The notes beneath the pieces were generated by a model. That model had not been told where the DNA came from and searched no databases. It saw only the letters and a list, made by a program, of their open reading frames with translations. A program made the translations under genes and the position numbers. Below, one piece after another: positions 3 to 62,369 of a DNA stretch of 64,000 bases. Source of the stretch: an uncultured virus (IMG/VR IMGVR_UViG_3300044796_000330) (Duplodnaviria > Heunggongvirae > Uroviricota > Caudoviricetes); the IMG/VR virus record IMGVR_UViG_3300044796_000330; one strand, written 5' to 3'. Each line of letters begins with the position of its first letter. Positions within the stretch are counted from its first letter, which is position 1.

Positions 3-1880
<1,878 letters not shown>

Positions 1881-6781: not shown

Positions 6782-7224
6782 AGAACGCATACACAACATT
6801 AGACAATTGCGATGTCGATGACACTGTGGCGATTTTTGTCAATGCAAATGGACAGATCCGCAGTGCAGCAGAGATCGGTAAAAACGAACAAGGATATACG
6901 GCATATCGAGCAACAGTTGTTGCAAAACCAACAACAAATTATGGGGATAACATTTTGGCTGGCATTACCTGGGATATCCCTCACGGGTGGTTCTGGGGCA
7001 GATCAGAAACCATTGACAGGAGTTTTGAGTCATATGGAATTGTTGCTAAGAGGGGAGAATACAACATCTCCAAGCGAAACAACGCCTTCAGATCATACTT
7101 TTGGTTTTGGCATTCGACAAGCGTTATGTTAATCAAGAACCCTCCGCTCACAAGACGCATTAAAGATAGCCAATATATCCTGGCCACTGACATACTCCGC
7201 AAGCTAAAGCATTGCGGGTTCTAA
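6778..7224 (+). pseudogene. Hypothetical gene interrupted by the IS605-type element
   Basis: Last codons lie inside the IS right end; a family-2-like tail (..LNLFG...FLLINREE) resumes at about 8764-8892. Confidence 0.5.
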
Positions 7225-8253
7225 AGTTTCAAAGAGAGTCTTACGAGCCTTTTCCTTGAATTGCTTTATAGGCGTATCAGTGCTGCCATTCTCGACGATC
7301 TTTTTCTCGTCTCGATAGATATTCGATGATCGTGCGATATTGAATGCCGCATTTACATCTGCGTGGTCGAGATGACCACAACTTTCACAATGAAACTTCT
7401 TCCCGTTTCTTTTTCCTCTCTCGTGGCACCTGGAACAATCTTGAGAAGTATATTCTGGTGAGATGTAGATAACCTGAATGCCGAGCAGCTTGGCTTTATA
7501 CTCAATCAGTTGTTGTAGCTGATAGAATGACCAACTGTGCAAAGCGCGTCTAAAAGACCTCTTCTGTTTTCTATTCTCTCTTATTCCAGTAAGCTTCTCT
7601 AACTTGATTCCTGTGCCAGTTTCTTTTGCAAGATTGACTATAAACCTGCTAATCCTATGGTTTAGGTTTCTGACTTTCCTGCTTTCCGAATCTCTTACCT
7701 CCTTGAGTTTTCTGTAGCGTTTTTGTTCCTGAAATATTGCTCGTAATCGTGCGTATTTGGTGTGTATCTTCTCGGCTTCTGCGCCGAGCTTGTATACCTT
7801 TCCTGTGGCTGGATTAGCGACAACCGCGCAGTGCCCGGTAGTATTTAGATCGACGCCTATGAACGATGTTGCTACGGTCTCTGGTTGTTCCAACACGGTG
7901 AACGATACATATGCGTAGGTGTCATCGAGTTCGATCTGATTCACCTCGGTGATATTGTAATGGCTCTCATTTAGCAGATCGAGTTTTATAGGTGTCAAAT
8001 GCAAGTTGTTTCCAACTACTTTGATGCACCTTCCCGGTAGGATCAAATTTACCGAATGAACCTCTTTGATTGTCTTGTTTCTGCCATATTTGCGCAAGAT
8101 CTGGTTTGATATCTCGGATTTGAGCCCAATGTGTTTTACATACTTGGTGGACAATTTGTCCTTGTTGCGTATCGCGTATTCTGCTATATGTTTCGCTTTG
8201 ACAAGATCGTGCGAAAAATCTCGATTGTGCTTGATTTTGATGGTGAGGATCAT
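7204..8253 (-). CDS. tnpB: TnpB RNA-guided endonuclease
   Basis: RuvC I GVDLN, RuvC II LEKL, YTSQDCSRC..CESC zinc finger, RuvC III HADVNAAFNI. Confidence 0.95.
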   Translation of the reverse strand: MILTIKIKHNRDFSHDLVKAKHIAEYAIRNKDKLSTKYVKHIGLKSEISNQILRKYGRNKTIKEVHSVNLILPGRCIKVVGNNLHLTPIKLDLLNESHYNITEVNQIELDDTYAYVSFTVLEQPETVATSFIGVDLNTTGHCAVVANPATGKVYKLGAEAEKIHTKYARLRAIFQEQKRYRKLKEVRDSESRKVRNLNHRISRFIVNLAKETGTGIKLEKLTGIRENRKQKRSFRRALHSWSFYQLQQLIEYKAKLLGIQVIYISPEYTSQDCSRCHERGKRNGKKFHCESCGHLDHADVNAAFNIARSSNIYRDEKKIVENGSTDTPIKQFKEKARKTLFETLEPAML

Positions 8254-8663
8254 ATGTTTTTCTGATCCTCTATGTATCTTTTGACTGTTTCAAGGCTAAC
8301 AGACCCAACCGTTGAGATAAAATTCGAATGAGTCCATAAACACGGAAGTCTCTTTTTTAGAGAAGGAAATTCTTTTCGAAGCTGCGAGGAGAGAAAGCCC
8401 TTTATTTTGCTCACCACTGGATAGACGCCAACCTTTGGACTCACATCCAACAATAAATGGATATGGTCTGGCATAACTTCTTGCTCTATAACAGTGAATT
8501 TGTATTCATCTTGTTTTGACAGGATGAGTTCTTTGGCTCTTGTGTCTATACCATCGGTTAGAACCTTTCTGCGATATTTTGGACAGAATATGATGTGGTA
8601 TTGACAGCTATATATTAGCCTTGTATCTGACTTATATTGCTTCTGATAGTTTGCCACTTCCAT
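8250..8663 (-). CDS. tnpA: IS200/IS605 HUH (Y1) transposase
   Basis: YHIIFCPKYRR, MPDHIHLL, LWT, YIEDQ. Confidence 0.95.
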   Translation of the reverse strand: MEVANYQKQYKSDTRLIYSCQYHIIFCPKYRRKVLTDGIDTRAKELILSKQDEYKFTVIEQEVMPDHIHLLLDVSPKVGVYPVVSKIKGFLSSQLRKEFPSLKKRLPCLWTHSNFISTVGSVSLETVKRYIEDQKNI

Positions 8664-12411: not shown

Positions 12412-13530
12412 ATGAGCAAGATTAATTCGGACGTTGATAGGTTTAAGAGATTGGTTCGTGGGAAAATCCGCGAAAATTTGAAAGACTTTATTGGGAGAGA
12501 GAAGATGATTACTCAGAACGGAGCTGGGAAGAAGATTTCCATTCCGCTCGATTACATTAACACTCCGCATTTTACCTTCGGGCAAAAGCAGAAGGGCGGA
12601 GTTGGTCAAGATGACGGTTCTGGAGAACCTGGAGATTCTGTTAATGGTAATGGAAACAAAAAGGGTAAGAACGGAAAGCAGGGTGGTAAAGATGGAGAAG
12701 GTGATGGATCTCTCGGTGTAGAATTTGATCCATCTGAGCTGGTTCAGATTCTCCGCGAAGCGCTGGAATTGCCAAGATTGGAAGACAAAGGGAAGGGCGA
12801 TTTTCAAAAGGAGAAACTGAAGTATAACAAGATCTCCAATATTGGAAACGAGAGTCTCAGACACAATAAACGGACGTTTCAACAAAGCTTACTCCGCTCG
12901 TTGAGTGAGAATCGTTATAACGCACTTGACCCTGGAAGATCCATTACGATCGAAAAGTGCGACAAAAGATACAAAACGAGTTCTACAATTGAAAAACCAG
13001 ACATCAATTCAGTTCTGATTTTTCAGAAGGACTGCTCTGGCTCAATGTCAGAGACGCATAATCATCTTGTTCAGGCATCTGCTTTTTGGATTGATCTTAT
13101 GCTGCGTGATACATACGGAGATAAGCTTCAGACTATTTGGATGGTGTTCGATACGGAAGCAAAGATTGTTCCGAAAAATGAGTTCTTTAGAATCTCATCC
13201 GGTGGAGGAACAAGGGTTTCAAGTTCATTGGCTCTTGCCTATGATTTGATTGAGAAGAAATATCCGTATTCCAATACGAATACCTTCATCTTTAATTTTA
13301 GCGACGGAGGAAATTATGACGCAGATAACAATCGATGTGTTGAGCTACTGAATGAAAAGATCTTACCAAACTGTAATCAATTTGCATATGGACAAGTGCA
13401 AGAGACAGATAATCTACTCGCTACACTTCAGTCGAATTTCGATAACCACGAGAAGGTTTCACTCGCTCATATCCCAGACGAGGCGGGTGTAATGGGGGCA
13501 ATTAAGTCCTTTTTCACGCCGAAGAAGTAG
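12412..13530 (+). CDS. yeaH: YeaH/YhbH (DUF444) vWA-domain protein
   Basis: DRFKRLVRGKIR, GGVGQDDG, LELPRL, DCSGSM MIDAS, SGGGTRVSS, FSDGGN. Confidence 0.92.
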   Translation: MSKINSDVDRFKRLVRGKIRENLKDFIGREKMITQNGAGKKISIPLDYINTPHFTFGQKQKGGVGQDDGSGEPGDSVNGNGNKKGKNGKQGGKDGEGDGSLGVEFDPSELVQILREALELPRLEDKGKGDFQKEKLKYNKISNIGNESLRHNKRTFQQSLLRSLSENRYNALDPGRSITIEKCDKRYKTSSTIEKPDINSVLIFQKDCSGSMSETHNHLVQASAFWIDLMLRDTYGDKLQTIWMVFDTEAKIVPKNEFFRISSGGGTRVSSSLALAYDLIEKKYPYSNTNTFIFNFSDGGNYDADNNRCVELLNEKILPNCNQFAYGQVQETDNLLATLQSNFDNHEKVSLAHIPDEAGVMGAIKSFFTPKK

Positions 13531-23954: not shown

Positions 23955-25163
23955 ATGCAAGTCATAGCTGAAAAAGGTAGCGCGCCCATTAAGGCGTGGG
24001 TCGATGGGGTGGAATTTGAGGAGAGCGCGAAGGCTCAATTGCGGAATTTGGCAGCGATGCCGTTTGTAAAAGCAATTAGTGTGATGCCCGATGTTCACGC
24101 TGGTATTGGCTCCACTGTTGGAACGGTATTTGCAACCGAGGACGTTTTAATTCCCGCAGCCGTAGGTGGAGATATTGGCTGTGGTGTCAATGTTGTTAAA
24201 ACGTCTCTTATGGCGCGCGACCTACCAGACAATCTCAAAGAGCTTCGTTTTATTATGGAGGCCGCTGTTCCATTCGGAAGAACAAATAATGGGGGACCTA
24301 ATGATCGCGGAAGTTGGGGCGATCCTCCGCAGGCAGTATTGGACGCCTGGGTCGATCTCGAACCGACATATCGAAAGATTGTAGAAGGGCATGGGAGAGT
24401 ATCTCACCCTCGCGTCGTCCAACAATTGTCCAGTCTCGGAGGGGGCAATCACTTTCTGGAAAAATGTATCGATAAAGACGGTTGTGTATGGATAATGCTC
24501 CACTCTGGCTCTCGTGGGGTGGGTAATAGTATTGGTTCACATTTCGTTGAGCTTGCCAAAAAAGATATGCAACGATATCATATCAATTTGTCGGATGCTA
24601 ATTTGGCCTATATTCCCGAAGGGTCTCCTAACTTCAAACCTTACGTTGAAGCTATGTTGTGGGCGCAGAAATATGCCAAGGTCAATCGCGAACTAATGAT
24701 GCAGGCAGTTATAACGGCCGTTAATCGTAGCAAACTTGTGCCGAAGTTCACTGTTGACTTCTCTTTTGATTGTTTCCATAATTATTCAGTACAAGAAAGA
24801 CACTTCCATAAAAATCCGTGGATCACTCGAAAAGGGGCGTGTCAGGCGAGGAAAGGAACGTGGGTTGCAATTCCCACATCTATGGGGACAAGAAGCTTCA
24901 TTTGTCGTGGTAAAGGGGATATTGAAAGTTTGACATCGTGCTCACACGGCGGCGGAAGGCGTATGAGCAGAACGCAAGCCATGAACACTTTCTCTGTAAA
25001 AGATCACGAGAAGGCAACAGAGGGGGTTGAGTGCAGAAAAGATCGCGAGGTGATTGAAGAAACGCCCGGCGCATATAAAGATCCTGACGCGATCATTTCT
25101 GCACAAAATCCTCTTGTAGAAGTTGTATATGAATTGAAACAAGTCATCTGCATTAAGGGATAG
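23955..25163 (+). CDS. rtcB: RtcB RNA 3'-phosphate/5'-OH ligase
   Basis: MPDVHAG, DIGCG, LGGGNHF, LHSGSRG, HN, RKGA, SHGGGR, P.AYK, CIKG. Confidence 0.95.
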   Translation: MQVIAEKGSAPIKAWVDGVEFEESAKAQLRNLAAMPFVKAISVMPDVHAGIGSTVGTVFATEDVLIPAAVGGDIGCGVNVVKTSLMARDLPDNLKELRFIMEAAVPFGRTNNGGPNDRGSWGDPPQAVLDAWVDLEPTYRKIVEGHGRVSHPRVVQQLSSLGGGNHFLEKCIDKDGCVWIMLHSGSRGVGNSIGSHFVELAKKDMQRYHINLSDANLAYIPEGSPNFKPYVEAMLWAQKYAKVNRELMMQAVITAVNRSKLVPKFTVDFSFDCFHNYSVQERHFHKNPWITRKGACQARKGTWVAIPTSMGTRSFICRGKGDIESLTSCSHGGGRRMSRTQAMNTFSVKDHEKATEGVECRKDREVIEETPGAYKDPDAIISAQNPLVEVVYELKQVICIKG

Positions 25164-26292
25164 ATGTACTTACTGGCGCTCATTTGAACTACTCCATCGC
25201 TCATAAATGATTGACTATAGTGATCAGATACAATGTCATATGTTTCGTTGTTTGTGCCAATATCAATGGCTCGAACGTGTTCAACAAAAGTATTTTCTGG
25301 TAGATTGATGTAACCTATTTTCTTACCAACAAGTCCTGGTTCACTTATTCTTGCGTCTTCAAGATTTGATGCTTTCTTATCGTGCCAAAGATCAAGATGC
25401 ACCTTGAGTGCAAGGTGAGCATACCACATAAACACCGTACATTGCCCGAAATTTGTAAGTCGATTCGTTTTCTTTGGAGATGACACGCGATATCCTATTG
25501 ATATAGCCAATTCGCGTATATCTATGGCAAGTTGTTCATTGGCGCACGCAATTGTAATCTGCCCGCTTGTATTAGAAACACAACCATCGGAATCAATGTA
25601 TCCGGCGAATACGGCCTCTCTTTCAGCAAGTGGCGCCTCAAAAATATATCTTGGCATTCTTCTTTCTTTAGATGTTCCAAAGACCCCAACTCTTTAATGC
25701 TCTGGTATACAGATTTAGTATTACACGTTAGTCCAAATGCACCTTTCGCGTTATTGTTCCATCGTATGTTTGGAAACATTTCCTCTAACAATGCCAAATA
25801 GCGTACCGTCGCCGCATCCTCTTTACCTCCAATGGCTAACCCGCATGACCATACATTGGTTGTGTTTGCTCTAAACCAACCGTCTCCAAGCCAAGCACCT
25901 ATTAGTCTTGCTACATTAATTCCTCCTACACTTTTCTCGCCACCATAGTATCTATTAGCACATACTATCTTGTCATTAACACAAACGTCATGTGCCCGTT
26001 TCCATTTTAGTGTTCCGACAGATTTCACATCCCAGGATCGAGTTGGATGTGGCAGTCCGTGTTCAACATTTACCGTTGCAATCAATTGATCATGTGGTGT
26101 ATTGATTGACCTGCCTTCTGTTCGAATCATAACGAATCTTTTATTCCCTGTATGAATTTTATTCAGCACTTTCGACACTACAACATTCTTATCACCTAAC
26201 GCATATAAATTATCGCCAATATTGATATTGGCAATTGTGCTTGGTCCTTTTGTAGTTGCTAAAGTATCGCTTGAAATATATTCACTTGGCAT
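25004..26292 (-). pseudogene. Free-standing intein-derived Hint + LAGLIDADG endonuclease, split by a 1-nt frameshift near 25685
   Basis: Hint N-part SSDTLATTKG..IANINIGD; LIGAWLGDG and FAGYIDSDG motifs; C-part TYDI....SF.SDGVV; frames 25522-26292 and 25004-25657 join as ELG/VFGTSKERRMP. Confidence 0.85.
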
Positions 26293-44027: not shown

Positions 44028-44102
44028 TGGGGGATCGTTCAACAGGCAGGACGATACACTTTGGATGTATCTATGAGGGTTCAAATCCTTCTCCCCCAGC
44101 CA
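44028..44102 (+). tRNA. tRNA-Gln(UUG)
   Basis: TGGGGGA/TCCCCCA acceptor, ATACA-CTTTGGA-TGTAT anticodon arm, GGTTCAAATCC T arm, G-CCA end. Confidence 0.95.
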
Positions 44103-49162: not shown

Positions 49163-49174
49163 CTAATTCTTCTC

Positions 49175-49241
49175 TTGACAAAGATCTCACTCGTGATTAC
49201 ACTGGTGGTAAGAGCAGCTCGTGGCTCTATAAATACGAGAC
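49175..49241 (+). promoter_or_regulatory. sigma70 promoter plus 5' pseudoknot element (near-identical copy at 61140-61205)
   Basis: TTGACA-17 nt-TACACT-GGTGGTA-AGAGCAGCTCGTGGCTCTATAAATACGAGAC. Confidence 0.8.
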
Positions 49242-49650
49242 AATGATGAAACTCAACACAACAATAGCCTCAATCCTAATCATCTTCGTTTCTTTACTCG
49301 TTGCGTTTATAACGATTGATTTTGGGTTCCTACTCCGTGCAGGCGTTATTTGCCTTGCGGTATTCGGAGCCACAATGCTCGGGATGAAACTCGAACGCAA
49401 TCTCCTCAACGAAAAGCAATGACACAAATACTCTCCAAATACAAGTTGGCGTCTCAAATAGACAATGAGAGAAATCTCCGATTGTCTCACGAGGACTTTA
49501 CCAATCTGTGTCTTACATTGGAGGCAAGTGGTGGTGAGAAGAATGTCGCACGTGTGTGCGCGTTCTTGAAATCCATTCCGCGCGAAGAACTTATTTGGCG
49601 ATCTGCTGCGGTAGCTCGCTTGCACAAATTACTCTCTATTATCAAACACA

Positions 49651-53743: not shown

Positions 53744-54346
53744 ATGAGCTTCGAAATCAAGTATCAGACAAAAGCCGGGATTTTCAACATCAAGTTAGAA
53801 CGAGATGTATCTGCCGATGAAGCCATGCAGTTGGCTCAAATTGGCTCGAATGTTTTGGGTATGGGATTTAACCTTGTTAAGGCAGCCGAAGTCCATCCAC
53901 CAATGTCCATCAGTGGTATATCTGGAAGTGGTGTTGCTTCGTCGAGCAGCACCATTGCCACCTTTCAAACCAAGAAGCCAAACAACACGATTATAAGTTC
54001 AGGCAGACAGGAAAAGCTTGGAGAGCGTCCGGCAGATAGCATTAATCTTGGCGGGTATCAAGAGCCGATAAGCGGTGTTAGACTTAAGATGGTTTCCACG
54101 CCTACCTATCAGTATAGGGTAGATGCGGTGAAGTTTATTAGGTCGCTCACTCAGTTGAGTATGAAGGCTGGCTACGATGTCATTATGGGGAATCACAAGT
54201 GTCCGATCCTGCGTCCTGAAATTGCGGCTCAGATTATGAAGAGCTTTAAGGAGTGGGGCATCTATGCGGTTCTTGAGGGGGCGCAGCGAGACGAGGGCGT
54301 GTCGGTTGGGGGATTGACAAGGGGCGACCCGATGACTATGATGTAG
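53744..54346 (+). CDS. Protein with a C-terminal ribosomal bL12-CTD-like domain
   Basis: RVDAVKFIRSLTQLSMKAGYDVI....P......A......F...G resembles KI.VIK.VR..TGLGLKEAK..V. Confidence 0.5.
   Translation: MSFEIKYQTKAGIFNIKLERDVSADEAMQLAQIGSNVLGMGFNLVKAAEVHPPMSISGISGSGVASSSSTIATFQTKKPNNTIISSGRQEKLGERPADSINLGGYQEPISGVRLKMVSTPTYQYRVDAVKFIRSLTQLSMKAGYDVIMGNHKCPILRPEIAAQIMKSFKEWGIYAVLEGAQRDEGVSVGGLTRGDPMTMM
54314..54342 (+). promoter_or_regulatory. sigma70-type promoter
   Basis: TTGACA-17 nt-TATGAT. Confidence 0.7.
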
Positions 54347-54356
54347 GTGTGATGCA

Positions 54357-54384
54357 GATGATCGGCTACGTGTCGTAGCTTGAA
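54357..54384 (+). repeat. 28-nt hairpin motif, copy 1 (copy 2 at 56651-56678)
   Basis: GATGATCGGCTAC-(G/A)TG(T/C)C-GTAGCTTGAA; differences only in the loop. Confidence 0.85.
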
Positions 54385-54485
54385 TGTTATGGCTCCTGTT
54401 TGATTTGTGTCTTGGTGTGTATCGTTGCCATTGTGGTCGTGGTATTACGCTAGTTTTGTATAGAGAATAGGTATGGTTTCATATT

Positions 54486-55139: not shown

Positions 55140-56372
55140 ATGAGCAAGAAATCTCTTGGTCAGTTCTTTACCACTAACGTGGACTACATACTTGATGGTA
55201 TGGACGGTTATGTTAGTGGTAAAGAGACAACCGATCCATTTGCTGGGAAGTGCGACCTGCTTCTGTGGGCGAAGAAGCACAGCGCAAAATCATATACTGG
55301 ATATGATATCGACAAAAAACTTGTCAATATGAAGATTGTCAATGACATTTCAATTATCGAAAATGATAGTCTTGCCTCGATTCCGCCATCGAAATTTATC
55401 ATCACCAATCCGCCTTACCTTGCAAAAAACAAGATGAGCGAAGCTCAGAAGAAGAAAGTTAGCAACGATTACGAAGATCTGTATCTATTGTCCTTAAAGA
55501 AGATCATTGATACCGATTGCGATGAAGGTATAGCTGTTGTTCCTGTTAATTTCTTCTCTGCCGAAAACTCAAACTCCCTTCGTAAGGAGTTTCTTAGCAG
55601 ATATGCAATAGACAAGATCAATTATTTCACTGAGCAAGTATTCGATGATACCACATACAATGTGGCATCTTTTCATTTCTATAAGAGTGTTGATTATTCT
55701 GATACACGCACATTGAATATCTGCGTTTATCCTGAAAAGAAGCACCTTTCATTCATTGCGAGCAAACAATTCGATTATAAGATAGGCGGCAAAGACCTTG
55801 CTGATATCTTCGCTGCTGATGATGTGTTGCACATTAAGCGTCTTACCGAGAAAACAGTAGAGGACAACCGAGGCGATCGTAGATTTGCCGAAGATAGATG
55901 CACTATTGATGCATTTCTTAATGACTTCAAGACAGAAACGAGATGCAAAATTAGCGCTTCTTTGCGTGATAGAATTGCACAAAACATTATCGTCATCAAC
56001 TGTATAGATGGCAAAAAGGATGACAACAAGATTTGCGCGGAAAATATCCGCAACTATGGCAAAAGTGCCCTTGTTGGAAAAGTCTCGTCTCGCAACATCG
56101 CGTATCTTCTTTTAGATGGGGCTACTATCGGAGATCAGTTGTCTCTTATTGAGATGTTCAACGCAAAGTTAAACGATTTGCGAGATAAGTACGCTTCCCT
56201 ATTTCTCACCAACTTCAGAGACAATAACCGTAAGCGCATTTCATTTGATTTTTGCTATGCGTTGCTTAACTATTGCTACGCTAACCTGACCGCCGCGAGC
56301 GCCAAGCCCTTGACAACCCTAGCCCCGATGACTATGATAGGTAGCACGAACGGAGCGGCAACGACAAAATGA
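55140..56372 (+). CDS. Amino (probably N6-adenine) DNA methyltransferase, gamma class
   Basis: LGQFFT (motif X), DPFAGKCD (I), YDID, ITNPPY (IV), FDDT. Confidence 0.9.
   Translation: MSKKSLGQFFTTNVDYILDGMDGYVSGKETTDPFAGKCDLLLWAKKHSAKSYTGYDIDKKLVNMKIVNDISIIENDSLASIPPSKFIITNPPYLAKNKMSEAQKKKVSNDYEDLYLLSLKKIIDTDCDEGIAVVPVNFFSAENSNSLRKEFLSRYAIDKINYFTEQVFDDTTYNVASFHFYKSVDYSDTRTLNICVYPEKKHLSFIASKQFDYKIGGKDLADIFAADDVLHIKRLTEKTVEDNRGDRRFAEDRCTIDAFLNDFKTETRCKISASLRDRIAQNIIVINCIDGKKDDNKICAENIRNYGKSALVGKVSSRNIAYLLLDGATIGDQLSLIEMFNAKLNDLRDKYASLFLTNFRDNNRKRISFDFCYALLNYCYANLTAASAKPLTTLAPMTMIGSTNGAATTK
56310..56338 (+). promoter_or_regulatory. sigma70-type promoter upstream of the ncRNA island
   Basis: TTGACA-17 nt-TATGAT; CCCGATGACTATGAT shared with the 54314 promoter. 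Confidence 0.7.
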
Positions 56373-56641
56373 GCAAATCGATCGAATCGATATCAGTTGA
56401 TCGCACAATGAAGTATATTACTCCTCTTCTCGAAGAGCTTGATAAGAGGGTAAAGGTAGCGCTGGCAGAAGGAAAGCGACTGTCAGTGACGCCTCTCGCT
56501 CGGGATCTCGCGCCGATCTATGGCATCGAGTGGAGTGAGGCATATCAACTCATCAATGTGTATGTAGCGGCGCACGCTGATACTCTTGAAGTAAAGAGAG
56601 GCGCGCACGGAGGGATCGACTGGAAGAGCGATCCACAATAA
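56369..56641 (+). CDS. Small winged-helix protein (Rrf2-like wing)
   Basis: LSV..LA..LA..YG......LEVKRGAHGGI. Confidence 0.6.
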   Translation: MSKSIESISVDRTMKYITPLLEELDKRVKVALAEGKRLSVTPLARDLAPIYGIEWSEAYQLINVYVAAHADTLEVKRGAHGGIDWKSDPQ

Positions 56642-56650
56642 GATTTGGGG

Positions 56651-56678
56651 GATGATCGGCTACATGCCGTAGCTTGAA
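56651..56678 (+). repeat. 28-nt hairpin motif, copy 2
   Basis: GATGATCGGCTACATGCCGTAGCTTGAA. Confidence 0.85.
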
Positions 56679-56690
56679 CTTGATGTATCA

Positions 56691-56719
56691 AGAGCAGCTC
56701 GTAGCTCTATAATACGAGA
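56691..56719 (+). ncRNA. H-type pseudoknot element (3 copies in window)
   Basis: S1 AGAGC/GCTCT, S2 CTCGT/ACGAG. Confidence 0.7.
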
Positions 56720-56799
56720 CGGGGTTTGGACTAAATGGAAACCAAAGGTCGCTGATACCTCGGTATCAGAAATGCAGCTCCACCCTGCAACCCTCACCA
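56720..56799 (+). ncRNA. tRNA-Glu-like RNA 1 (CUCG tetraloop)
   Basis: (C)GGGGTT TG GACT..GGTC G CTGATAC-CTCG-GTATCAG AAAT GCAG-CTCCACC-CTGC AACCCTC A CCA. Confidence 0.85.
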
Positions 56800-56807
56800 A
56801 AATTTCT

Positions 56808-56883
56808 GGGGAATTAGATTAAACGGATAAGATCACCGATACCTCGGTATCGGAGATGCAGCTCCAACCTGCATTCCTCACCA
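56808..56883 (+). ncRNA. tRNA-Glu-like RNA 2 (CUCG tetraloop)
   Basis: GGGGAAT TA GATT..GATC A CCGATAC-CTCG-GTATCGG AGAT GCAG-CTCCAAC-CTGC ATTCCTC A CCA. Confidence 0.9.
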
Positions 56884-56920
56884 AATAACGTAGCACATTT
56901 GAGAGCGAAAGCTCTCACGA

Positions 56921-56997
56921 GGCCCTATCCTCTAAGTTGGTCGGAGAGCTTATCTTCGGATAAGACAATGGAACGTCGATAATTCCTAGGGTCACTA
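56921..56997 (+). ncRNA. tRNA-Glu-like RNA 3 (UUCG tetraloop)
   Basis: GGCCCTA TC CTCT..GGAG A GCTTATC-TTCG-GATAAGA CAAT GGAA-CGTCGATAA-TTCC TAGGGTC A CTA. Confidence 0.9.
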
Positions 56998-57019
56998 ATT
57001 TTCTGCAACACAATCAAAC

Positions 57020-57096
57020 GGCCTGATCCTCTAAGTTGGCAGGAGACCTTATCTTCGGATAAGGCAATAGAGCGTCGATAACTCTTCAGGTCACCA
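57020..57096 (+). ncRNA. tRNA-Glu-like RNA 4 (UUCG tetraloop)
   Basis: GGCCTGA TC CTCT..GGAG A CCTTATC-TTCG-GATAAGG CAAT AGAG-CGTCGATAA-CTCT TCAGGTC A CCA. Confidence 0.9.
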
Positions 57097-57210
57097 AATT
57101 CTTCCTCGCGCCATCTATTGCATTCTGTTTAGCACTATATGGTCTGAGGTTCTCTTCTAGGTTAATCAATAAGGATCAATTCAGCAACGTCTCTAATCAG
57201 TTTCTCTTTC

Positions 57211-57283
57211 GGGCCACTGGAATATGAAGTTCGGTTTGTCTTCGGACAGACAGGTGATCGCTCAGACCGATCGTGGCTCACAA
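57211..57283 (+). ncRNA. tRNA-Glu-like RNA 5 (UUCG tetraloop)
   Basis: GGGCCAC TG GAAT-ATGAA-GTTC G GTTTGTC-TTCG-GACAGAC AGGT GATCG-CTCAGAC-CGATC GTGGCTC A CAA. Confidence 0.88.
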
Positions 57284-57309
57284 ATGAATCCGTAGCACAT
57301 TTTTCACGA

Positions 57310-57384
57310 GGGCTATTCTTCTAGGGGTAGGAATCCTTTACTTCGGTAAAGGCAACGGAGAGTCGAGACCTCCATAGCTCACTA
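57310..57384 (+). ncRNA. tRNA-Glu-like RNA 6 (UUCG tetraloop)
   Basis: GGGCTAT TC TTCT..GGAA T CCTTTAC-TTCG-GTAAAGG CAAC GGAG-AGTCGAGAC-CTCC ATAGCTC A CTA. Confidence 0.9.
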
Positions 57385-57534
57385 ATATAGCATCTACACT
57401 TATCCCACAGCAAGCAAGTTAATCTTGCAACTTCATCTCAAAGTAAGCACTGGGTTTTAACCCAGACCGTTAAAATGAGGAGCGGAGTTGCAAGCTTCGC
57501 GAGCATAAACTGTGGGACAGTGCGGATGCTATAT
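57385..57534 (+). ncRNA. About 150-nt rod-like RNA with a central bubble (6S-RNA-like)
   Basis: ATATAGCATCT/GGATGCTATAT, CACT/AGTG, TCCCACAG/CTGTGGGA, 13x15-nt bubble, CTTGCAACTTC/GGAGTTGCAAG, apical CTGGGTT/AACCCAG. Confidence 0.7.
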
Positions 57535-57563
57535 ATCCAACTAACACACAACAACGCCAAACA

Positions 57564-57887
57564 ATGACCACATTAGAAACATCAACAGGCGAGCCTAATC
57601 AAGAGCTTCGCCTTTATCTTGCGTTTCACTTCGGTGTAAAGTGTCGTCATTGTGAGAGTCTTGTGCTTGACCCAGATAAGAGTAAGGGGCACACCTATCT
57701 TCGCGGCAAGTGTCCTTCGTGCCACAAGAAATCAAGCGATCCTCCGTCGATGAATGTCGATACCACGAAGCTTACCAAGAAAGAGCGAAAGAAGCTTCGT
57801 CAAGAACTAAAGCGGCAGAAAAAGGCAGAAACGAGAGCAGCTCGTGGCAAATATGCCAATGAGACTGTCATCGAATCAGGAGATTAG
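57564..57887 (+). CDS. Zinc-finger protein with basic tail
   Basis: CRHC...CPSC; K/R-rich helix. Confidence 0.65.
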   Translation: MTTLETSTGEPNQELRLYLAFHFGVKCRHCESLVLDPDKSKGHTYLRGKCPSCHKKSSDPPSMNVDTTKLTKKERKKLRQELKRQKKAETRAARGKYANETVIESGD

Positions 57888-58183
57888 AGGAGCTTTACAT
57901 TTTGCTTTCATCTCACGAACTTACTGATTGGTTTTTCAACAGAGACATCGTTCCTGGTCAAGCGGACATCATATCCCATCAGGAATATGTGTCGCTAATG
58001 TTTGACTCCTATGCTAGCGGCAAAGTGTTCAATGACTTCGTCAAGGATGTCGTTGTTCCAACAGGACATCTCGAATATATCTTCGTCGAAGACTCGTGGG
58101 AAAATCTTCACAACACGTATATTGCATTTGTCTCGAACTACAACAAACCAAAGACAACTCAATAAAGAAAGCTACTGAAGAGA

Positions 58184-59374
58184 ATGTTTGACTTCCTACA
58201 AGCACTCTCTGGGTTCCTAATCGGATCAACAATGAAACACACAAGTAAATCTGGATTCCAAGAGATGTGCCCAGACTGTAAGCTGTATATGTGCCATCAT
58301 TTTCGTTCTCACGAGATGACTGGAATTCATGGAAGTTCAACGGAGATTTCTGTGGGAGAAGAGGTTGATAACTTGATTGCGAGCGATCTTGAAACACGTG
58401 TTAGAGTTGCCGATGATAAGCCCGCTGAGGTCGCACCTGTCAAGCGTGTCCTCATTACGCCGCCTCAGACTGTTGTGAAGTCGAATGTTGTTGAGACAAC
58501 TTCATCCACGTCTTCCACGGCTGTCTCTCTCAAAGAGAACACAACATCCACAACAATCAGATCAAACAAGTATGTTGAAGGCCACGAGCGCATTTTTGGT
58601 GATAAGAAGAGCACGGCAGATAAGCTTTGGCTCACTTGCAAGGTGTGTGATAAGCGCGCAAATATCGCCTACTTCGACGAGCATATCAAGATGCACACAT
58701 CGGAGTTCATTGATAACCTCACCTCTCGTGCTGTCTCCTCCTCAGCTTCTAACAAGAACGCAATTCCTCTTGCTAACTTGTCCAAACCGCTTGAGCCCCT
58801 GAAGCCCGCTGTTCCGCGAGTATCGAATGTTCCGAAGTATAGGTTCCGCAAGATCGAGAAGTGCGTGGCTATTGCATCCACCTCTGTCAATAAGCGCTAT
58901 TCTGACTTCGCCGTGGTCTTCGTTCTTGAGACGAAGCCGAGCTTGTATAATACCAGCTATGTGTCTGGCCCATCTACTTCGGTCTATAAGGACTTCGAGC
59001 GCATGAGCATTCACGTTGTATATGACTCTGTGGATGATTTCTACCTTGTATCTTCCAAGATTCTTAAGCGAAGCTCGCATAGTTCGTATGATGTTGAGGA
59101 TGACGCCAAGGTTCCCGAGCGCATCTGCTATCAGGAAGAGATCCTAACCGAAGTTCGCCGAGCAATGTTGTTCCTCGGAATTGATCCGAAGAACGCATAT
59201 AGACACTTCCGAAGAATGCTTCGGGACTCCATCATCGATGAGGTTGATGATAAGGATCGTGTTCTCGTTAGCAAGACAAGCGGATTTGCTGATTTCCAAG
59301 AAGCTCTTAAGAAGAACGCCGGAAGTTGGAACAACAATACCAACATGTCCGAAGCGTGGGGACACGGCTGTTAG
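58184..59374 (+). CDS. Hypothetical protein with a C2H2-like zinc finger
   Basis: CKVC.........EHIKMH; 396 aa. Confidence 0.7.
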   Translation: MFDFLQALSGFLIGSTMKHTSKSGFQEMCPDCKLYMCHHFRSHEMTGIHGSSTEISVGEEVDNLIASDLETRVRVADDKPAEVAPVKRVLITPPQTVVKSNVVETTSSTSSTAVSLKENTTSTTIRSNKYVEGHERIFGDKKSTADKLWLTCKVCDKRANIAYFDEHIKMHTSEFIDNLTSRAVSSSASNKNAIPLANLSKPLEPLKPAVPRVSNVPKYRFRKIEKCVAIASTSVNKRYSDFAVVFVLETKPSLYNTSYVSGPSTSVYKDFERMSIHVVYDSVDDFYLVSSKILKRSSHSSYDVEDDAKVPERICYQEEILTEVRRAMLFLGIDPKNAYRHFRRMLRDSIIDEVDDKDRVLVSKTSGFADFQEALKKNAGSWNNNTNMSEAWGHGC

Positions 59375-60696: not shown

Positions 60697-61139
60697 GCGG
60701 CAAAGATGGTGCCAATAAATTCACCTGCGAGAGTTGCGGTGAAGGGCACATATGGATAAAGCTATCCATATGGGACAACAATACTCCGAGAGGTTGGGAA
60801 CTTGTCAAGGTTAAGAAAGCTTGGTATATGGCTGACGAATATAAAGCGTATTGTCCTGAGTGCAAACACACAATCACAATCGAAGAAGAAACCAACTAAT
60901 AGGAAGCCCATGAGAAGCGATAAGAAAAGACTGAACCATTCATTGTCCAACGGGCTACTCATTACACACGCACTTCGTCATCGGAGTGGCGTGTTTGTGC
61001 TTTTTGTGTCTGATTTGCAGAACACAGAGCGAGTTATCTTTGATGGTGAAAAGGTTGTGGGTGATTATGGGTTTTCCTTCACTGGAAGAGAGAATGGTGA
61101 GGTCGCGGCGAGATTGAAGAAGGTGTTCGAGGGTTGCAC

Positions 61140-61205
61140 TTGACAGCAATCTCACTCGTGATTACACTGGTGGTAAGAGCAGCTCGTGGCTCTATAATAC
61201 GAGAC
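61140..61205 (+). promoter_or_regulatory. sigma70 promoter plus pseudoknot element upstream of the tRNA
   Basis: Near-identical to 49175-49241. Confidence 0.8.
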
Positions 61206-61220
61206 GAGTATTAGATTTTA

Positions 61221-61301
61221 CGTGCTGTGCCCGAGTGGACGATGGGGCCACCCTTATACAGTGGTATACAAACGCCGTTGGTTCGAATCCAACCAGCACG
61301 A
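61221..61301 (+). tRNA. tRNA-Ile(UAU) with a 12-nt variable region, no encoded CCA
   Basis: CGTGCTG/CAGCACG acceptor; CCACC-CTTATAC-AGTGG anticodon arm with one C-A mismatch; GTTGG-TTCGAAT-CCAAC T arm. Confidence 0.8.
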
Positions 61302-62369
61302 CTATAACTTGTTTCTGATTGACTTAGGATCAATTCCGTTTCTTCGCAGAAACTTCCTAATAGCGTTATCACTTATTCCAAGTTTTCTTCCGACTTGCGT
61401 GAAGTTGTTTCCGTGATGCAAAATCATAGCAACAACTTGCTCAGGTTCGGGCCACTCGATTCTCTCCTCCCAGGACAATCTTGGCCTTTCATTGCCTTTT
61501 GAATCGACTCTTTTCAGATTGCACATCCTGCACCTAATAGACTCGATACCTATTTTGCTGTGGCAGTCCACACAGAAATTGTCCTTATACTGCCTTCCTG
61601 TTCCTGTCAATTTCTTACCAGCATATGTATCTGTTTGAGAATGACAGTTTGGACAGAGTAAGCGAAGATTCTCCAATCTATTGTCTTTGTTGTTGCCGTT
61701 AATGTGATCAAGATGCAATGATAATCTTGTGTCTCGCCAATTCACTATTCCACATATGGAACACTTATATGGCATCAAGTTATGTTTGTCGATGGCTCGC
61801 TTCAAAGCGTCTCTTCCGAAGCCACTATTCAACGCGAACATTTCGTCAATCGGACGATCAATGCGTATAGTCTTCTTCTGATCTGCTCTACTCAAAAAGT
61901 GCGATATACTAAGATTCAATCGCTTGATGTGTTTCTTGATTGTTTTTGTATTGGCGGCAAGAGAGGAATATCCAAGTGCATTACTTACATCAGTAAGAGA
62001 TTCGGATTTTCGAATGATGTCGGTAAATTCTTGATCGGTTATGATCTTGCTCGCAATTCTGAATTGACACGGCTTGTTGGAATCTATAAGGAGTTTCCTC
62101 TGATGAAATAGAGCCGAACAGGTGGCATTGCAGAAGTAATTCCCACTGGCATTTAATTCGCTTTTTGTCCGTTTTACAGGCGCAGCACAGTAGGAGCAAT
62201 TGATAATCTTCGATTCGCCTCTCTGTTTTTGCAGGGCACTGGCGCATTTTCGAGAACATACGGGCACGTAGCTTTCGCCACTAACTTTCTTTTGGCGAGT
62301 GAACTGCTTCAGTTCCCGTGAAAATTGCAAGCAACACATAGCACATACTAAATCGATCATAGTCGTCAT
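61302..62369 (-). CDS. HNH homing endonuclease with zinc fingers and C-terminal HTH
   Basis: CSICG...LHLDHINGNNKDNRLENLRLLCPNCHSQT. Confidence 0.92.
   Translation of the reverse strand: MTTMIDLVCAMCCLQFSRELKQFTRQKKVSGESYVPVCSRKCASALQKQRGESKIINCSYCAAPVKRTKSELNASGNYFCNATCSALFHQRKLLIDSNKPCQFRIASKIITDQEFTDIIRKSESLTDVSNALGYSSLAANTKTIKKHIKRLNLSISHFLSRADQKKTIRIDRPIDEMFALNSGFGRDALKRAIDKHNLMPYKCSICGIVNWRDTRLSLHLDHINGNNKDNRLENLRLLCPNCHSQTDTYAGKKLTGTGRQYKDNFCVDCHSKIGIESIRCRMCNLKRVDSKGNERPRLSWEERIEWPEPEQVVAMILHHGNNFTQVGRKLGISDNAIRKFLRRNGIDPKSIRNKL

What the first reader, a model, noticed from the sequence alone, without database searches (positions are those of the whole stretch)
56720..57384. Array of six tRNA-Glu mimics with the anticodon locked in a C(U/C)UCG-G tetraloop
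Seen: six cloverleaves (starts 56720, 56808, 56921, 57020, 57211, 57310) that differ widely in sequence but keep the same architecture through compensatory changes. All have a G2-U71 wobble, A73, a U13-G22 D-stem pair and a 4-nt variable region. All have an 18-nt anticodon arm forming a 6-7 bp stem closed by C-UUCG-G (four copies) or C-CUCG-G (two copies). There is no U33 and no 7-nt loop, and T loops lack UUCG/UUCA (CUCC, GUCG, CUCA instead). Three copies encode CCA. Known: UUC and CUC are exactly the two Glu anticodons; U11-A24, U13-G22-A46 and a missing base 47 are tRNA-Glu identity features, all met by copies 3, 4 and 6; G2-U71 with A73 occurs in some bacterial tRNA-Glu (recalled from Bacillus, to be verified). 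Inference: these are selected non-decoding tRNA-Glu mimics rather than decaying tRNAs. Possible roles: decoys or inhibitors of tRNA-targeting defences (RloC-type anticodon nucleases, CCA-modifying toxins, HipA acting on GluRS), GluRS sponges, or Glu carriers for non-ribosomal chemistry. A +1 frameshift reader with an 8-nt loop is possible but less likely. I do not know of a described family like this.
Basis: partly seen in the sequence, partly recalled or inferred. Interest (0 to 1): 0.95.

Follow-up and report, generated by a model that had tools for sequence, protein, structure and literature searches.

The report
Six sealed-anticodon tRNA look-alikes in phage
A large soil or peat phage carries six side-by-side genes for RNAs that fold like tRNAs but have the codon-reading loop zipped shut, so they are selected tRNA look-alikes whose job is still unknown.

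Summary
Six cloverleaves lie head to tail on the + strand at 56721-57384, in the largest gene-free gap of an ORFan-rich large-phage window. ARAGORN and Rfam call none of them. RNAalifold on a plain MAFFT alignment recovers the cloverleaf with a 7-bp anticodon stem capped by YUCG. 18 of 22 pairs show double compensatory changes, and 99.2% of pair cells are paired against 32-53% when partners are slid. The closest copies (c3/c4, c1/c2) differ in stems only by whole-pair swaps. The sealed arm beats an open 8-nt loop by 5.0-6.2 kcal/mol in 6 of 6. G1-C72, G2·U71, U13·G22, U8, A14, A73 and C74 are kept. So these are selected, non-decoding tRNA mimics, not decaying genes. The tRNA-Glu label is not established. 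The open loop of c3-c6 can equally be read as an Arg(UCG) loop plus one base, and the "Glu" body features occur in other isotypes of related phages. I found no homologue and no publication. Earlier notes of this scan report similar sealed-anticodon mimics on other phage DNA (unchecked). Function is inferred: decoy or ligand RNAs released by tRNA-processing enzymes, with a cut-signal role as the main rival.

The parts
56721..56799 (+). c1. tRNA-shaped RNA gene with a sealed CUCG arm, a 14-nt D loop and encoded CCA. It is the most deviant copy: U5·C68 mismatch or a one-base acceptor shift.
   Evidence: R1 70.1 bits; folds; alignment.
56808..56883 (+). c2. tRNA-shaped RNA gene with a sealed CUCG arm and encoded CCA. 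It is 81% identical to c1.
   Evidence: R1 79.3 bits.
56921..56997 (+). c3. tRNA-shaped RNA gene with a sealed UUCG arm (6 bp plus G·A) and a 3' CUA.
   Evidence: R1 84.9 bits; the MFE is the cloverleaf.
57020..57096 (+). c4. tRNA-shaped RNA gene with a sealed UUCG arm and encoded CCA. It is 83% identical to c3.
   Evidence: R1 88.4 bits.
57211..57283 (+). c5. tRNA-shaped RNA gene with a sealed UUCG arm, a short D loop without GG, a 5-bp T stem and a 3' CAA.
   Evidence: R1 72.3 bits; the MFE is the cloverleaf.
57310..57384 (+). c6. tRNA-shaped RNA gene with a sealed UUCG arm, a G15-C48 Levitt pair and a 3' CUA.
   Evidence: R1 83.1 bits.
56690..56720 (+). 31-nt promoter or leader element (contains TATAAT) that ends at G1 of c1. 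The same element precedes the tRNA(UAU) gene at 61221. A third copy, which has TATAAAT in place of TATAAT, precedes a small ORF at 49243.
   Evidence: Repeat families D10 and D7; exact 17-mer found twice against 0.09 expected; sequences.
56889..56920 (+). Leader before c3: CGTAGCAC...CACGA with an inserted GAAA-capped hairpin. A shorter copy lies before c6 at 57291-57309.
   Evidence: Read directly. The motif count alone is not significant: 7 matches against 3.96 expected.
57097..57210 (+). 114-nt spacer between c4 and c5 with no significant structure.
   Evidence: Fold of 57090-57215 gives z = +0.64.
57385..57534 (+). 150-nt imperfect long hairpin. It starts one base after c6 and ends 29 nt before the next start codon.
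   Evidence: dG -66 kcal/mol, z = -8.0, 0 of 200 shuffles as stable.
56310..56338 (+). Sigma-70-like promoter (TTGACA-17-TATGAT, 11 of 12). It is the nearest upstream consensus promoter on the + strand.
   Evidence: No + strand terminator-like site in 56300-57900.
57564..57887 (+). Downstream gene for a CxxC...CxxC zinc-ribbon protein with a Lys/Arg-rich tail. It is a candidate RNA-binding neighbour, which is inference only.
   Evidence: Homologues at 60-67% identity, one named 'Com' by a source; alignment; no significant Pfam or PDB match.

Best explanation
The six units are paralogous genes for about 75-nt RNAs that take the tRNA L-shape but cannot decode, because the anticodon arm is a rigid 7-bp helix closed by a YUCG tetraloop.

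Inferred steps:
1. They are transcribed as part of a long + strand phage transcript and from local promoter-like elements.
2. The host's tRNA-processing enzymes cut them out: RNase P at G1, and 3' nucleases plus CCA-adding enzyme at A73.
3. As stable free RNAs they present one conserved acceptor end (G1-C72, G2·U71, A73) and a tRNA elbow on a body with no cleavable or readable anticodon loop.
4. They act in high dose as decoys or competitive ligands for a protein that reads the acceptor end or body of tRNA. Candidates are a tRNA-directed host defence nuclease or modifying toxin, a synthetase, or another tRNA enzyme.

Shown: the fold, its selection, and the inability to form a normal anticodon loop. 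Inferred: processing, accumulation, and the decoy or ligand role.
For: Fold and selection:
- RNAalifold on a plain MAFFT alignment returns the cloverleaf with the sealed arm, and 18 of 22 pairs have double changes.
- 99.2% of 131 pair cells are paired, 0 of 500 shuffles reach this, and slid controls give 32-53%.
- c3/c4 differ at 13 positions, 10 of them in stems as 5 whole-pair swaps. c1/c2 differ at 14 positions, 8 of them in stems as 4 swaps, all still paired.

tRNA tertiary signature:
- U8 and A14 are present in 6 of 6.
- The Levitt pair 15-48 is A-U four times and G-C once.
- C56 is present in 6 of 6.
- GG is present in 5 of 6 D loops.

Non-decoding:
- The sealed arm is the MFE of the arm in 5 of 6 copies. 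In c3 the MFE arm drops only the outer G·A pair.
- It is 5.0-6.2 kcal/mol better than an open 8-nt loop in 6 of 6.
- G53-C61 is missing in 5 of 6 and U54 in 6 of 6.
- ARAGORN and Rfam of 6.

Product rather than a mere cut site:
- Six copies lie within 664 nt with nothing coding between them.
- The acceptor end is invariant while the rest of the acceptor stem varies freely.
- The 3' trailers are AU-rich, as in tRNA precursors.

Expression context:
- A 31-nt element ends at c1's G1 and also precedes a real tRNA gene.
- Contigs of a metatranscriptome library cover 56824-57129 and 57144-57341. This is weak, because DNA carry-over is not excluded.
Against: - No partner protein was identified. The neighbours are an orphan DNA methylase, ORFans and a zinc-ribbon protein with no family.
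- No homologue was found, so conservation beyond the six paralogues is untested.
- The bodies differ widely (40-83% identity), so only an end or shape reader would see them as alike.
- No processed RNA ends were seen. Only contigs were available, and the RNA library covers flanking genes at similar depth.
- c1 and c5 deviate in the acceptor and the D loop.
- GG at the 5' end with a wobble in the acceptor stem could instead mark them for CCACCA tagging and decay (recalled from work on the CCA-adding enzyme, not tested).
Confidence: 0.35

Rival explanations
1. Cut signals only (t-element-like punctuation). The cloverleaves exist to recruit RNase P and 3' tRNA nucleases. These separate the upstream cistron from the downstream one. 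The downstream mRNA is left with the 150-nt hairpin at its 5' end as a stabiliser. The excised RNAs are by-products.
For: - No + strand terminator-like site lies between the promoter at 56310 and the downstream genes.
- The long hairpin starts one base after c6.
- One RNA-library contig begins at 57379, near c6's 3' end, and has the highest depth of that run here. This is a weak hint, since contigs do not show ends.
- tRNA-like t-elements define mRNA ends in plant mitochondria (PMC1920247, listing and abstract start seen).
- Earlier notes of this scan favour this reading for single sealed mimics in other phages (unchecked).
Against: - One element would be enough, yet there are six in a row with 8-114-nt spacers and no gene between them.
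- In the other 63 kb of the window, R1 scores ordinary tRNAs at 28-42 bits but finds only the tRNA-Gln (33.9 bits), the tRNA(UAU) (14.9 bits) and nothing else above 17.1 bits. Other gene junctions therefore lack such folds.
- An invariant G2·U71, A73 and C74 is more than RNase P is known to need (established knowledge, recalled).
Confidence: 0.25
2. RNA partners of a phage protein. The mimics and the adjacent hairpin form an RNP with, or are regulated by, the neighbouring zinc-ribbon protein with a basic tail (57564-57887).
For: - The gene lies directly downstream.
- The protein has a CxxC...CxxC ribbon and a Lys/Arg-rich tail.
- Its homologues share 60-67% identity, and a source names one of them after the RNA-binding Mu Com protein.
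Against: - There is no significant Pfam or PDB match. The best are E 0.0016 to PRP3, below its cut-off, and E 0.51 to eL24.
- The DNA around the homologues could not be fetched, so co-occurrence is untested.
- Adjacency alone is weak evidence.
Confidence: 0.1
3. Chargeable carriers. An anticodon-independent synthetase or transferase loads an amino acid on the conserved acceptor end for a non-ribosomal use.
For: - A73, G1-C72 and G2·U71 are invariant.
- G2·U71 is a charging determinant in two known systems: Borrelia LysRS-1 and Drosophila mt-AlaRS together with G3-C70 (PMC9976931, passages read). G3-C70 is present in c1, c2, c5 and c6.
- The weak T arm would disfavour use in translation.
Against: - LysRS-1 also needs U35 and U36.
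- No synthetase or transferase gene was found in the window.
- Only 3 of 6 copies encode CCA.
Confidence: 0.1
4. Decaying or duplicated tRNA pseudogenes without function.
For: Gene finders do not call them. c1 and c5 have defects.
Against: - Every stem difference between the closest pairs is a compensated double change.
- 18 of 22 pairs covary.
- All six keep the same sealed arm and the same acceptor end.
Confidence: 0.04
5. +1 frameshift or quadruplet-reading tRNAs with an open 8-nt loop.
For: The arm has 18 nt instead of 17. Related huge phages carry tRNAs with 6- or 8-nt loops.
Against: - The closed form is favoured by 5.0-6.2 kcal/mol in 6 of 6.
- c1 and c2 have no U33 in any register.
- U54 is lost in all six copies and G53-C61 in five of the six.
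Confidence: 0.02

Closest known systems
Canonical bacterial and phage tRNA (Rfam RF00005)
   Same: Cloverleaf with a 7-bp acceptor stem; U8-A14; R15-Y48; GG in the D loop facing U55-C56; A73; CCA encoded in three copies. R1, built from the six, scores real tRNAs at 28-42 bits.
   Different: No 7-nt anticodon loop. The arm is 7 bp plus a tetraloop. U54 is absent in 6 of 6 and G53-C61 in 5 of 6. RF00005 does not match even at E <= 10, and ARAGORN does not call them.
Plant mitochondrial t-elements and tRNA punctuation (PMC1920247; listing and abstract start seen)
   Same: tRNA-like folds without a decoding role that tRNA-processing enzymes use to make RNA ends. Here one junction between two cistrons is occupied.
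   Different: t-elements are single and flank mRNAs. Here six tandem copies share a conserved acceptor end. Cleavage has not been shown.
mascRNA and menRNA of MALAT1 and MEN-beta (PMC9976931 passage read; PMC11693755 listing)
   Same: A small tRNA-like RNA excised by RNase P/Z that is not aminoacylated and acts through protein binding. mascRNA stabilises GlnRS according to the passage read.
   Different: These are eukaryotic, single-copy and sit at the 3' end of a lncRNA. They have a different anticodon-arm design.
Murine gammaherpesvirus 68 vtRNAs/TMERs (PMC4337559, passages read)
   Same: A clustered set of eight viral tRNA-like genes that are not aminoacylated. Each is followed by stem-loops released by RNase Z. 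A single vtRNA has a function of its own. Here c6 is directly followed by a long hairpin.
   Different: That is a eukaryotic Pol III system with miRNA hairpins. Here the host is bacterial and only the last copy is followed by a hairpin.
Polycistrons of irregular tRNAs in forest and peat soil metatranscriptomes (PMC5389517, section 16 read)
   Same: Tandem non-standard tRNAs from the same kind of habitat, some charged but not used in translation.
   Different: Those keep open anticodon loops and have 8/4 or E-loop architectures. No sealed arm is described in the section read.
Sealed-anticodon tRNA mimics noted earlier by this scan in other phages (AI notes, unchecked)
   Same: A full cloverleaf with a GNRA or cUUCGg cap in place of the anticodon loop, in crAss-like, jumbo, freshwater and peat phages. 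One note reports a tandem pair.
   Different: No sequence similarity to them was found. According to those notes none is a six-copy array, and most sit singly beside genes or inside tRNA arrays.

Membership tests
Elongator tRNA | Cloverleaf with tRNA tertiary pairs (U8-A14, R15-Y48, G18G19 with U55C56) | tested here: met
   The R15-Y48 pair holds in 5 of 6 and GG in the D loop in 5 of 6. c5 is the exception for both.
Elongator tRNA | 7-nt anticodon loop with U33 and an exposed anticodon | tested here: not met
   The 18-nt arm allows only 4-, 6- or 8-nt loops. The 4-nt form is favoured by 5.0-6.2 kcal/mol in 6 of 6.
Elongator tRNA | T arm with G53-C61 and a U54-U55-C56 loop | tested here: not met
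   G53-C61 is present only in c5. Position 54 is C or G in all six.
Elongator tRNA | Recognised by ARAGORN or Rfam RF00005 | tested here: not met
   0 of 6.
tRNA-Glu (E. coli GluRS identity set, PMC9976931) | U34, U35, C36 and A37 exposed in the anticodon loop (strong determinants) | tested here: not met
   UUC or CUC is locked in the tetraloop and the next base is G, not A.
tRNA-Glu (E. coli GluRS identity set, PMC9976931) | U11-A24, U13-G22::A46, and no residue 47 | tested here: inconclusive
   U13·G22 in 6 of 6, A46 in 5 of 6, a 4-nt variable region in 6 of 6, U11-A24 in 3 of 6. These features are not specific: U13·G22 occurs in 10 of 50 parsed tRNAs of related phages, 7 of them non-Glu, and in neither of the 2 ordinary Glu parsed (21 of 71 tRNAs were dropped as unparsable).
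tRNA-Glu (E. coli GluRS identity set, PMC9976931) | G1-C72 and U2-A71 | tested here: not met
   G1-C72 is present, but pair 2-71 is G·U in 6 of 6. That Bacillus-type tRNA-Glu has G2·U71 and A73 is recalled and was not verified here.
t-element / tRNA punctuation signal | Non-decoding tRNA-like fold at a junction between transcribed units | tested here: met
   The array lies between ORF 56369-56641 and ORF 57564-57887, with no terminator-like site on the + strand.
t-element / tRNA punctuation signal | Cleavage by RNase P and RNase Z at its ends | not testable with these tools
   Only contigs of public runs were available.
+1 frameshift suppressor tRNA | Open 8-nt anticodon loop on an otherwise canonical tRNA | tested here: not met
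   for the energies. The T arm is non-canonical.
Any Rfam family (including Y RNA, tmRNA and other tRNA-like families held in release 15) | Covariance-model match | tested here: not met
   The only match at E <= 10 in 56500-57700 is a 15.4-bit snoRNA chance hit on the other strand.

The most novel reading that the evidence does not exclude
These are members of an undescribed, phage-wide class of sealed-anticodon tRNA decoys. They are RNA-only counter-measures or hijackers that offer a tRNA acceptor end and elbow on a body with no open anticodon loop to cut. In this reading they neutralise a tRNA-directed immune effector, or capture a synthetase or tRNA enzyme, and six diversified copies supply the dose without creating recombining repeats.
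Probability: 0.25. Interest if true: 0.9.

Novelty: new variant of a known kind. Interest (0 to 1): 0.7.

Why it matters
Phage tRNA genes are now read mostly as codon-supply or as replacements for tRNAs cut by host defences. An array of tRNA-shaped RNAs that cannot decode, yet is kept by strong compensatory evolution, points to a use of the tRNA shape itself.

Gene finders and Rfam miss these genes, so such RNAs are invisible in current phage annotation. Together with the similar single cases this scan noted in other phages, a covariance model for the sealed-arm design could reveal how common they are.

If they bind a defence nuclease, a toxin or a synthetase, they would be a new kind of RNA-based phage counter-measure. 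They would also be handy, nuclease-resistant tRNA-body probes.

Tried and rejected
Homologue search (all negative)
- blastn of 56600-57600 against 50,697 phage records gave no match.
- R1 was run over the whole of LR756504.1 (636 kb) and LR756511.1 (595 kb; PrkA 54.6% identical). It found only ordinary or odd-looped tRNAs at 28-42.5 bits.
- R1 was run over 14 IMG/VR records related by PrkA or RtcB. 3 of 14 had matches, all ARAGORN-called ordinary tRNAs. Most of these records are fragments.
- Four pattern scans built from the copies' tetraloop, T loop and 3' end returned 21 viral loci, 22 metagenome loci, 16 viral loci and 13 genome-contig loci. R1 matched 0 of these at E <= 0.01.
- Fixed patterns can only find copies that keep those letters, so this is a weak negative.
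- R1 on 3 MAGs and on 151 genomes of one phylum gave 0 matches at E <= 1e-9, with only part of the candidates scored. This says little.

Synteny route
- The flanking proteins 58184-59374 and 55140-56372 have no relatives in IMG/VR.
- The downstream zinc-ribbon protein has 3 homologues of comparable length (60-67% identical) and a fourth, partial hit. Their DNA was not found in viral contigs or genome contigs.

Whole genome
- None is held for this window.

Isotype assignment
- Pairwise alignment of the bodies to 71 phage tRNAs gave low, mixed scores, with Val(UAC) and odd Glu-like genes on top.
- No isotype can be named.

Reads
- Parts of the array without RNA-library cover (56613-56823, 57130-57143, 57342-57378) are not evidence of anything.
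- No sequence variants fall inside the six copies in the four runs laid, so there is no population-level covariation.

Other checks
- The CGTAGCNC motif count in the window is not above chance: 7 against 3.96 expected.
- Neighbouring proteins have no PADLOC or PHROG function beyond the methylase.
- The literature searches found no paper describing phage tRNA-like RNAs with a tetraloop in place of the anticodon loop.
Full report
WHAT IS THERE

The window is an ORFan-rich stretch of a large phage. It holds PrkA, DUF444, RtcB, an IS200/IS605 pair, homing endonucleases and an orphan DNA methylase, and almost all genes are on the + strand. Its PrkA is 54.6% identical to that of a 595-kb uncultured phage, LR756511.1. 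Its methylase is 35% identical to one of a 636-kb phage, LR756504.1. One cluster record puts the window's own protein on a 137-kb contig.

The largest gene-free gap of the window is 56642-57563. It holds six units on the + strand at 56721-56799, 56808-56883, 56921-56997, 57020-57096, 57211-57283 and 57310-57384.

ARAGORN finds only a tRNA-Gln at 44028 and a tRNA(UAU) at 61221. Rfam at gathering score finds the same two. At E <= 10 over 56500-57700, Rfam finds only a 15.4-bit snoRNA chance hit on the other strand.

IS THE FOLD REAL

MAFFT alone aligns the six copies. RNAalifold on that alignment returns a cloverleaf with these parts:
- a 7-bp acceptor stem
- a 4-bp D stem
- a 7-bp anticodon stem closed by four bases
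- a 4-nt variable region
- a 4-bp T stem

18 of the 22 pairs carry double changes.

On the model-fitted alignment, 99.2% of 131 pair cells are standard pairs. None of 500 column shuffles reaches the observed values. Sliding the 3' partners by 1-3 columns gives 32-53% pairing and at most 7 covarying pairs. That alignment leans towards the structure, but the MAFFT result does not.

Pairwise identity is 40-83%. The two young pairs are the most telling:
- c3 and c4 differ at 13 positions. Ten lie in stems and make up five pairs, each changed on both sides.
- c1 and c2 differ at 14 positions. Eight lie in stems and make up four pairs, each changed on both sides and all still paired.

Decay does not do this. 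It also suggests pressure to diversify the stems of neighbouring copies, either against recombination or against mispairing within one precursor. That last point is inference.

The tertiary signature of tRNA is kept:
- U8 and A14 in 6 of 6
- pair 15-48 as A-U four times and G-C once (c5 has U/U)
- GG in 5 of 6 D loops
- U55-C56 readable in all T loops

G·U pairs at 2-71 and 13-22 would be C·A on the other strand, and R1 matches only the + strand.

WHY THEY CANNOT DECODE

The arm has 18 nt, so it can form loops of only 4, 6 or 8 nt. ViennaRNA gives the closed 7-bp form -5.1 to -10.2 kcal/mol and the 5-bp stem with an 8-nt loop +0.1 to -4.0 kcal/mol. The gap is 5.0-6.2 kcal/mol in all six. The whole-molecule MFE contains the sealed arm in 6 of 6 (in c3 without the outer G·A pair), and the cloverleaf lies within 0.8-3.2 kcal/mol of the MFE.

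The T arm has lost U54 in all six and G53-C61 in five. Both are near-universal in translating tRNAs (established knowledge, recalled).

WHAT IS CONSERVED

The following are invariant while acceptor pairs 3-7 vary freely:
- G1-C72
- G2·U71
- U13·G22
- the C-G pair under the tetraloop
- A73, C74 and A76

c1 needs either a U5·C68 mismatch or a one-base shift. The 3' trailers are AU-rich. CCA is encoded in c1, c2 and c4.

IS IT A tRNA-Glu MIMIC

By the identity set in PMC9976931 (passages read), the strong GluRS determinants are U34, U35, C36 and A37. Here these are locked, and position 37 is G. U2-A71 is absent.

The body features do fit: U13·G22 in 6 of 6, A46 in 5 of 6, no residue 47 in 6 of 6, and U11-A24 in 3 of 6. 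They are not specific, however. Of 71 distinct tRNAs from related phage loci, 50 could be parsed. Ten of these have U13·G22: three odd Glu-like genes and seven Arg, Asp, Gly, His, Lys or Pro tRNAs. Neither of the two ordinary tRNA-Glu parsed has it. G2·U71 occurs in a Val and a Lys tRNA.

R1's best hits vary by genome:
- Val(UAC) at 42.5 bits in LR756511.1
- Ile at 42.0 bits, Pro at 41.0 bits and Arg at 36.8 bits in IMG/VR relatives
- Glu-like genes at 28-39 bits in LR756504.1

Read in another register, the opened loop of c3-c6 is one extra base followed by C-U-UCG-G-A/U. That is a canonical Arg(UCG) loop with U33 and a purine at 37, so a single inserted base would seal it.

cUUCGg and its CUCG variant are generic stable caps (recalled). 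Because the six are paralogues, 6 of 6 is one inheritance, not six choices. Glu ancestry stays possible: LR756504.1 has at least seven Glu-like genes with odd anticodon loops, several of them with 18-nt arms. It is not shown.

CONTEXT AND EXPRESSION

A consensus promoter (TTGACA-17-TATGAT) lies at 56310-56338. No terminator-like site lies on the + strand up to 57900.

A 31-nt element with TATAAT ends exactly at G1 of c1. It recurs before the tRNA(UAU) gene at 61221. A variant with TATAAAT recurs before a small ORF at 49243. At those two sites it is preceded by TTGACA-17-TACACT. Degenerate copies (CGTAGCAC...CACGA) precede c3 and c6. That motif alone is not above chance.

One base after c6, a 150-nt hairpin begins (57385-57534; -66 kcal/mol, z = -8.0). 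It ends 29 nt before the start codon of a zinc-ribbon protein with a basic tail. That protein has no significant family.

The stretch is held by peat, soil and freshwater metagenomes of seven studies. Three runs hold half of its words or more, and one of those three is a metatranscriptome. Contigs of that RNA library cover 56824-57129, 57144-57341 and 57379-57566. They also cover patches of flanking genes at similar depth, and DNA carry-over is not excluded. This is weak support for transcription and none for processing. No variant falls inside the six copies in the four runs laid.

HOMOLOGUES AND LITERATURE

None were found. The searches and their limits are listed under Tried and rejected. 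The five literature searches found no description of phage tRNA-like RNAs with a sealed anticodon arm.

Earlier notes of this scan describe single or paired sealed-anticodon mimics in crAss-like, jumbo, freshwater, sediment and peat phages and in an archaeal virus. These are unchecked AI notes and share no sequence with this array. They lower the claim of uniqueness and raise the chance that this is a recurring phage device.

HOW IT MOST LIKELY WORKS

All readings share these inferred steps: transcription in a long + strand RNA, RNase P cleavage at each G1, and 3' trimming with CCA addition or repair.

I favour the free RNAs being the product (0.35). Six copies with nothing between them exceed what a cut site needs. 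The acceptor end is under selection beyond what processing is known to need. No other gene junction in the window has such a fold. A tRNA body with no readable or cleavable loop suits a decoy or competitive ligand for a protein that reads the acceptor end or elbow.

The main rival is a pure cut-signal or insulator role that also gives the downstream mRNA a 5' hairpin (0.25). Next come an RNP with the neighbouring protein (0.1), chargeable carriers (0.1), pseudogenes (0.04) and quadruplet decoding (0.02).

VERDICT

The feature is real and strongly selected. It is a new variant of the known idea of non-decoding tRNA-like RNAs (t-elements, mascRNA, herpesvirus vtRNAs). It is unusual for being a six-copy diversified array in a phage with a conserved G2·U71/A73 end. 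The tRNA-Glu label and every functional role remain untested.

Noticed in passing
window 57385-57534 (+): A 150-nt imperfect long hairpin (dG -66 kcal/mol, z = -8.0) lies directly after c6 and 29 nt before the next start codon. It has no Rfam match. One soil run carries a variant with several changes at 57401-57413.
   Followed up: partly
window 56690-56720, 61175-61205, 49203-49240; also 49174-49232 and 61139-61197: A shared 31-nt element with TATAAT lies in front of c1 and the tRNA(UAU) gene. A variant with TATAAAT lies in front of a 59-aa ORF. At the last two sites it is part of a 59-nt repeat (95% identical) with TTGACA-17-TACACT. It is probably a promoter-plus-leader cassette.
   Followed up: partly
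window 61221-61302 (+): tRNA with anticodon UAU and a 12-nt variable region (82 nt; Rfam 48.1 bits). It is unusual for an Ile tRNA and abuts an HNH endonuclease gene on the other strand. Long-armed UAU tRNAs of soil bacteria are discussed in PMC5389517.
   Followed up: no
L002:1501-1577, L003:1501-1578, L004:1355-1432 and 1501-1577, L005:1501-1592, L006:1364-1441 and 1501-1578 (LR756504.1): Seven dispersed tRNA-Glu-like genes have a canonical Glu D arm and T loop but anticodon arms with 6- or 8-nt loops (UUUUCA or UAUUCA). ARAGORN calls three of them 'tRNA-???' and misses four.
   Followed up: partly
L012:1116-1191 (LR756511.1): ARAGORN calls a tRNA with a four-base anticodon (gaaa), that is, an 8-nt loop.
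   Followed up: no
window 7204-8663 (-): An IS200/IS605-type pair sits inside the phage: TnpB (Cas12f1-like TNB domain, E 1.6e-24) and a Y1 transposase (E 3.4e-37).
   Followed up: no
window 23955-25163 (+) and 25004-25657 (-): An RtcB RNA ligase gene (E 3.9e-110) has a LAGLIDADG-like ORF overlapping its 3' end on the other strand.
   Followed up: no
window 54357-54391 and 56651-56685; 54314-54342 and 56310-56338: Two repeated intergenic elements. One is a 35-nt hairpin-forming repeat just after two stop codons (86% identical). The other is a repeated sigma-70-like promoter (TTGACA...GATGACTATGAT).
   Followed up: no
window 2882, 3097, 5814, 9395, 9852, 22299, 53252 (+): At least seven small ORFs begin with the same ~29-45-nt stretch (ATGAAA..GGCGACAAAGT...). 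This suggests a family of small paralogous genes with a shared N-terminus.
   Followed up: no
window 96-1880 and 12412-13530 (+): The phage carries a PrkA-type kinase/AAA protein and a DUF444 (YeaH-like) protein. The nearest phage relatives of PrkA are uncultured huge phages and Thermus phages.
   Followed up: no
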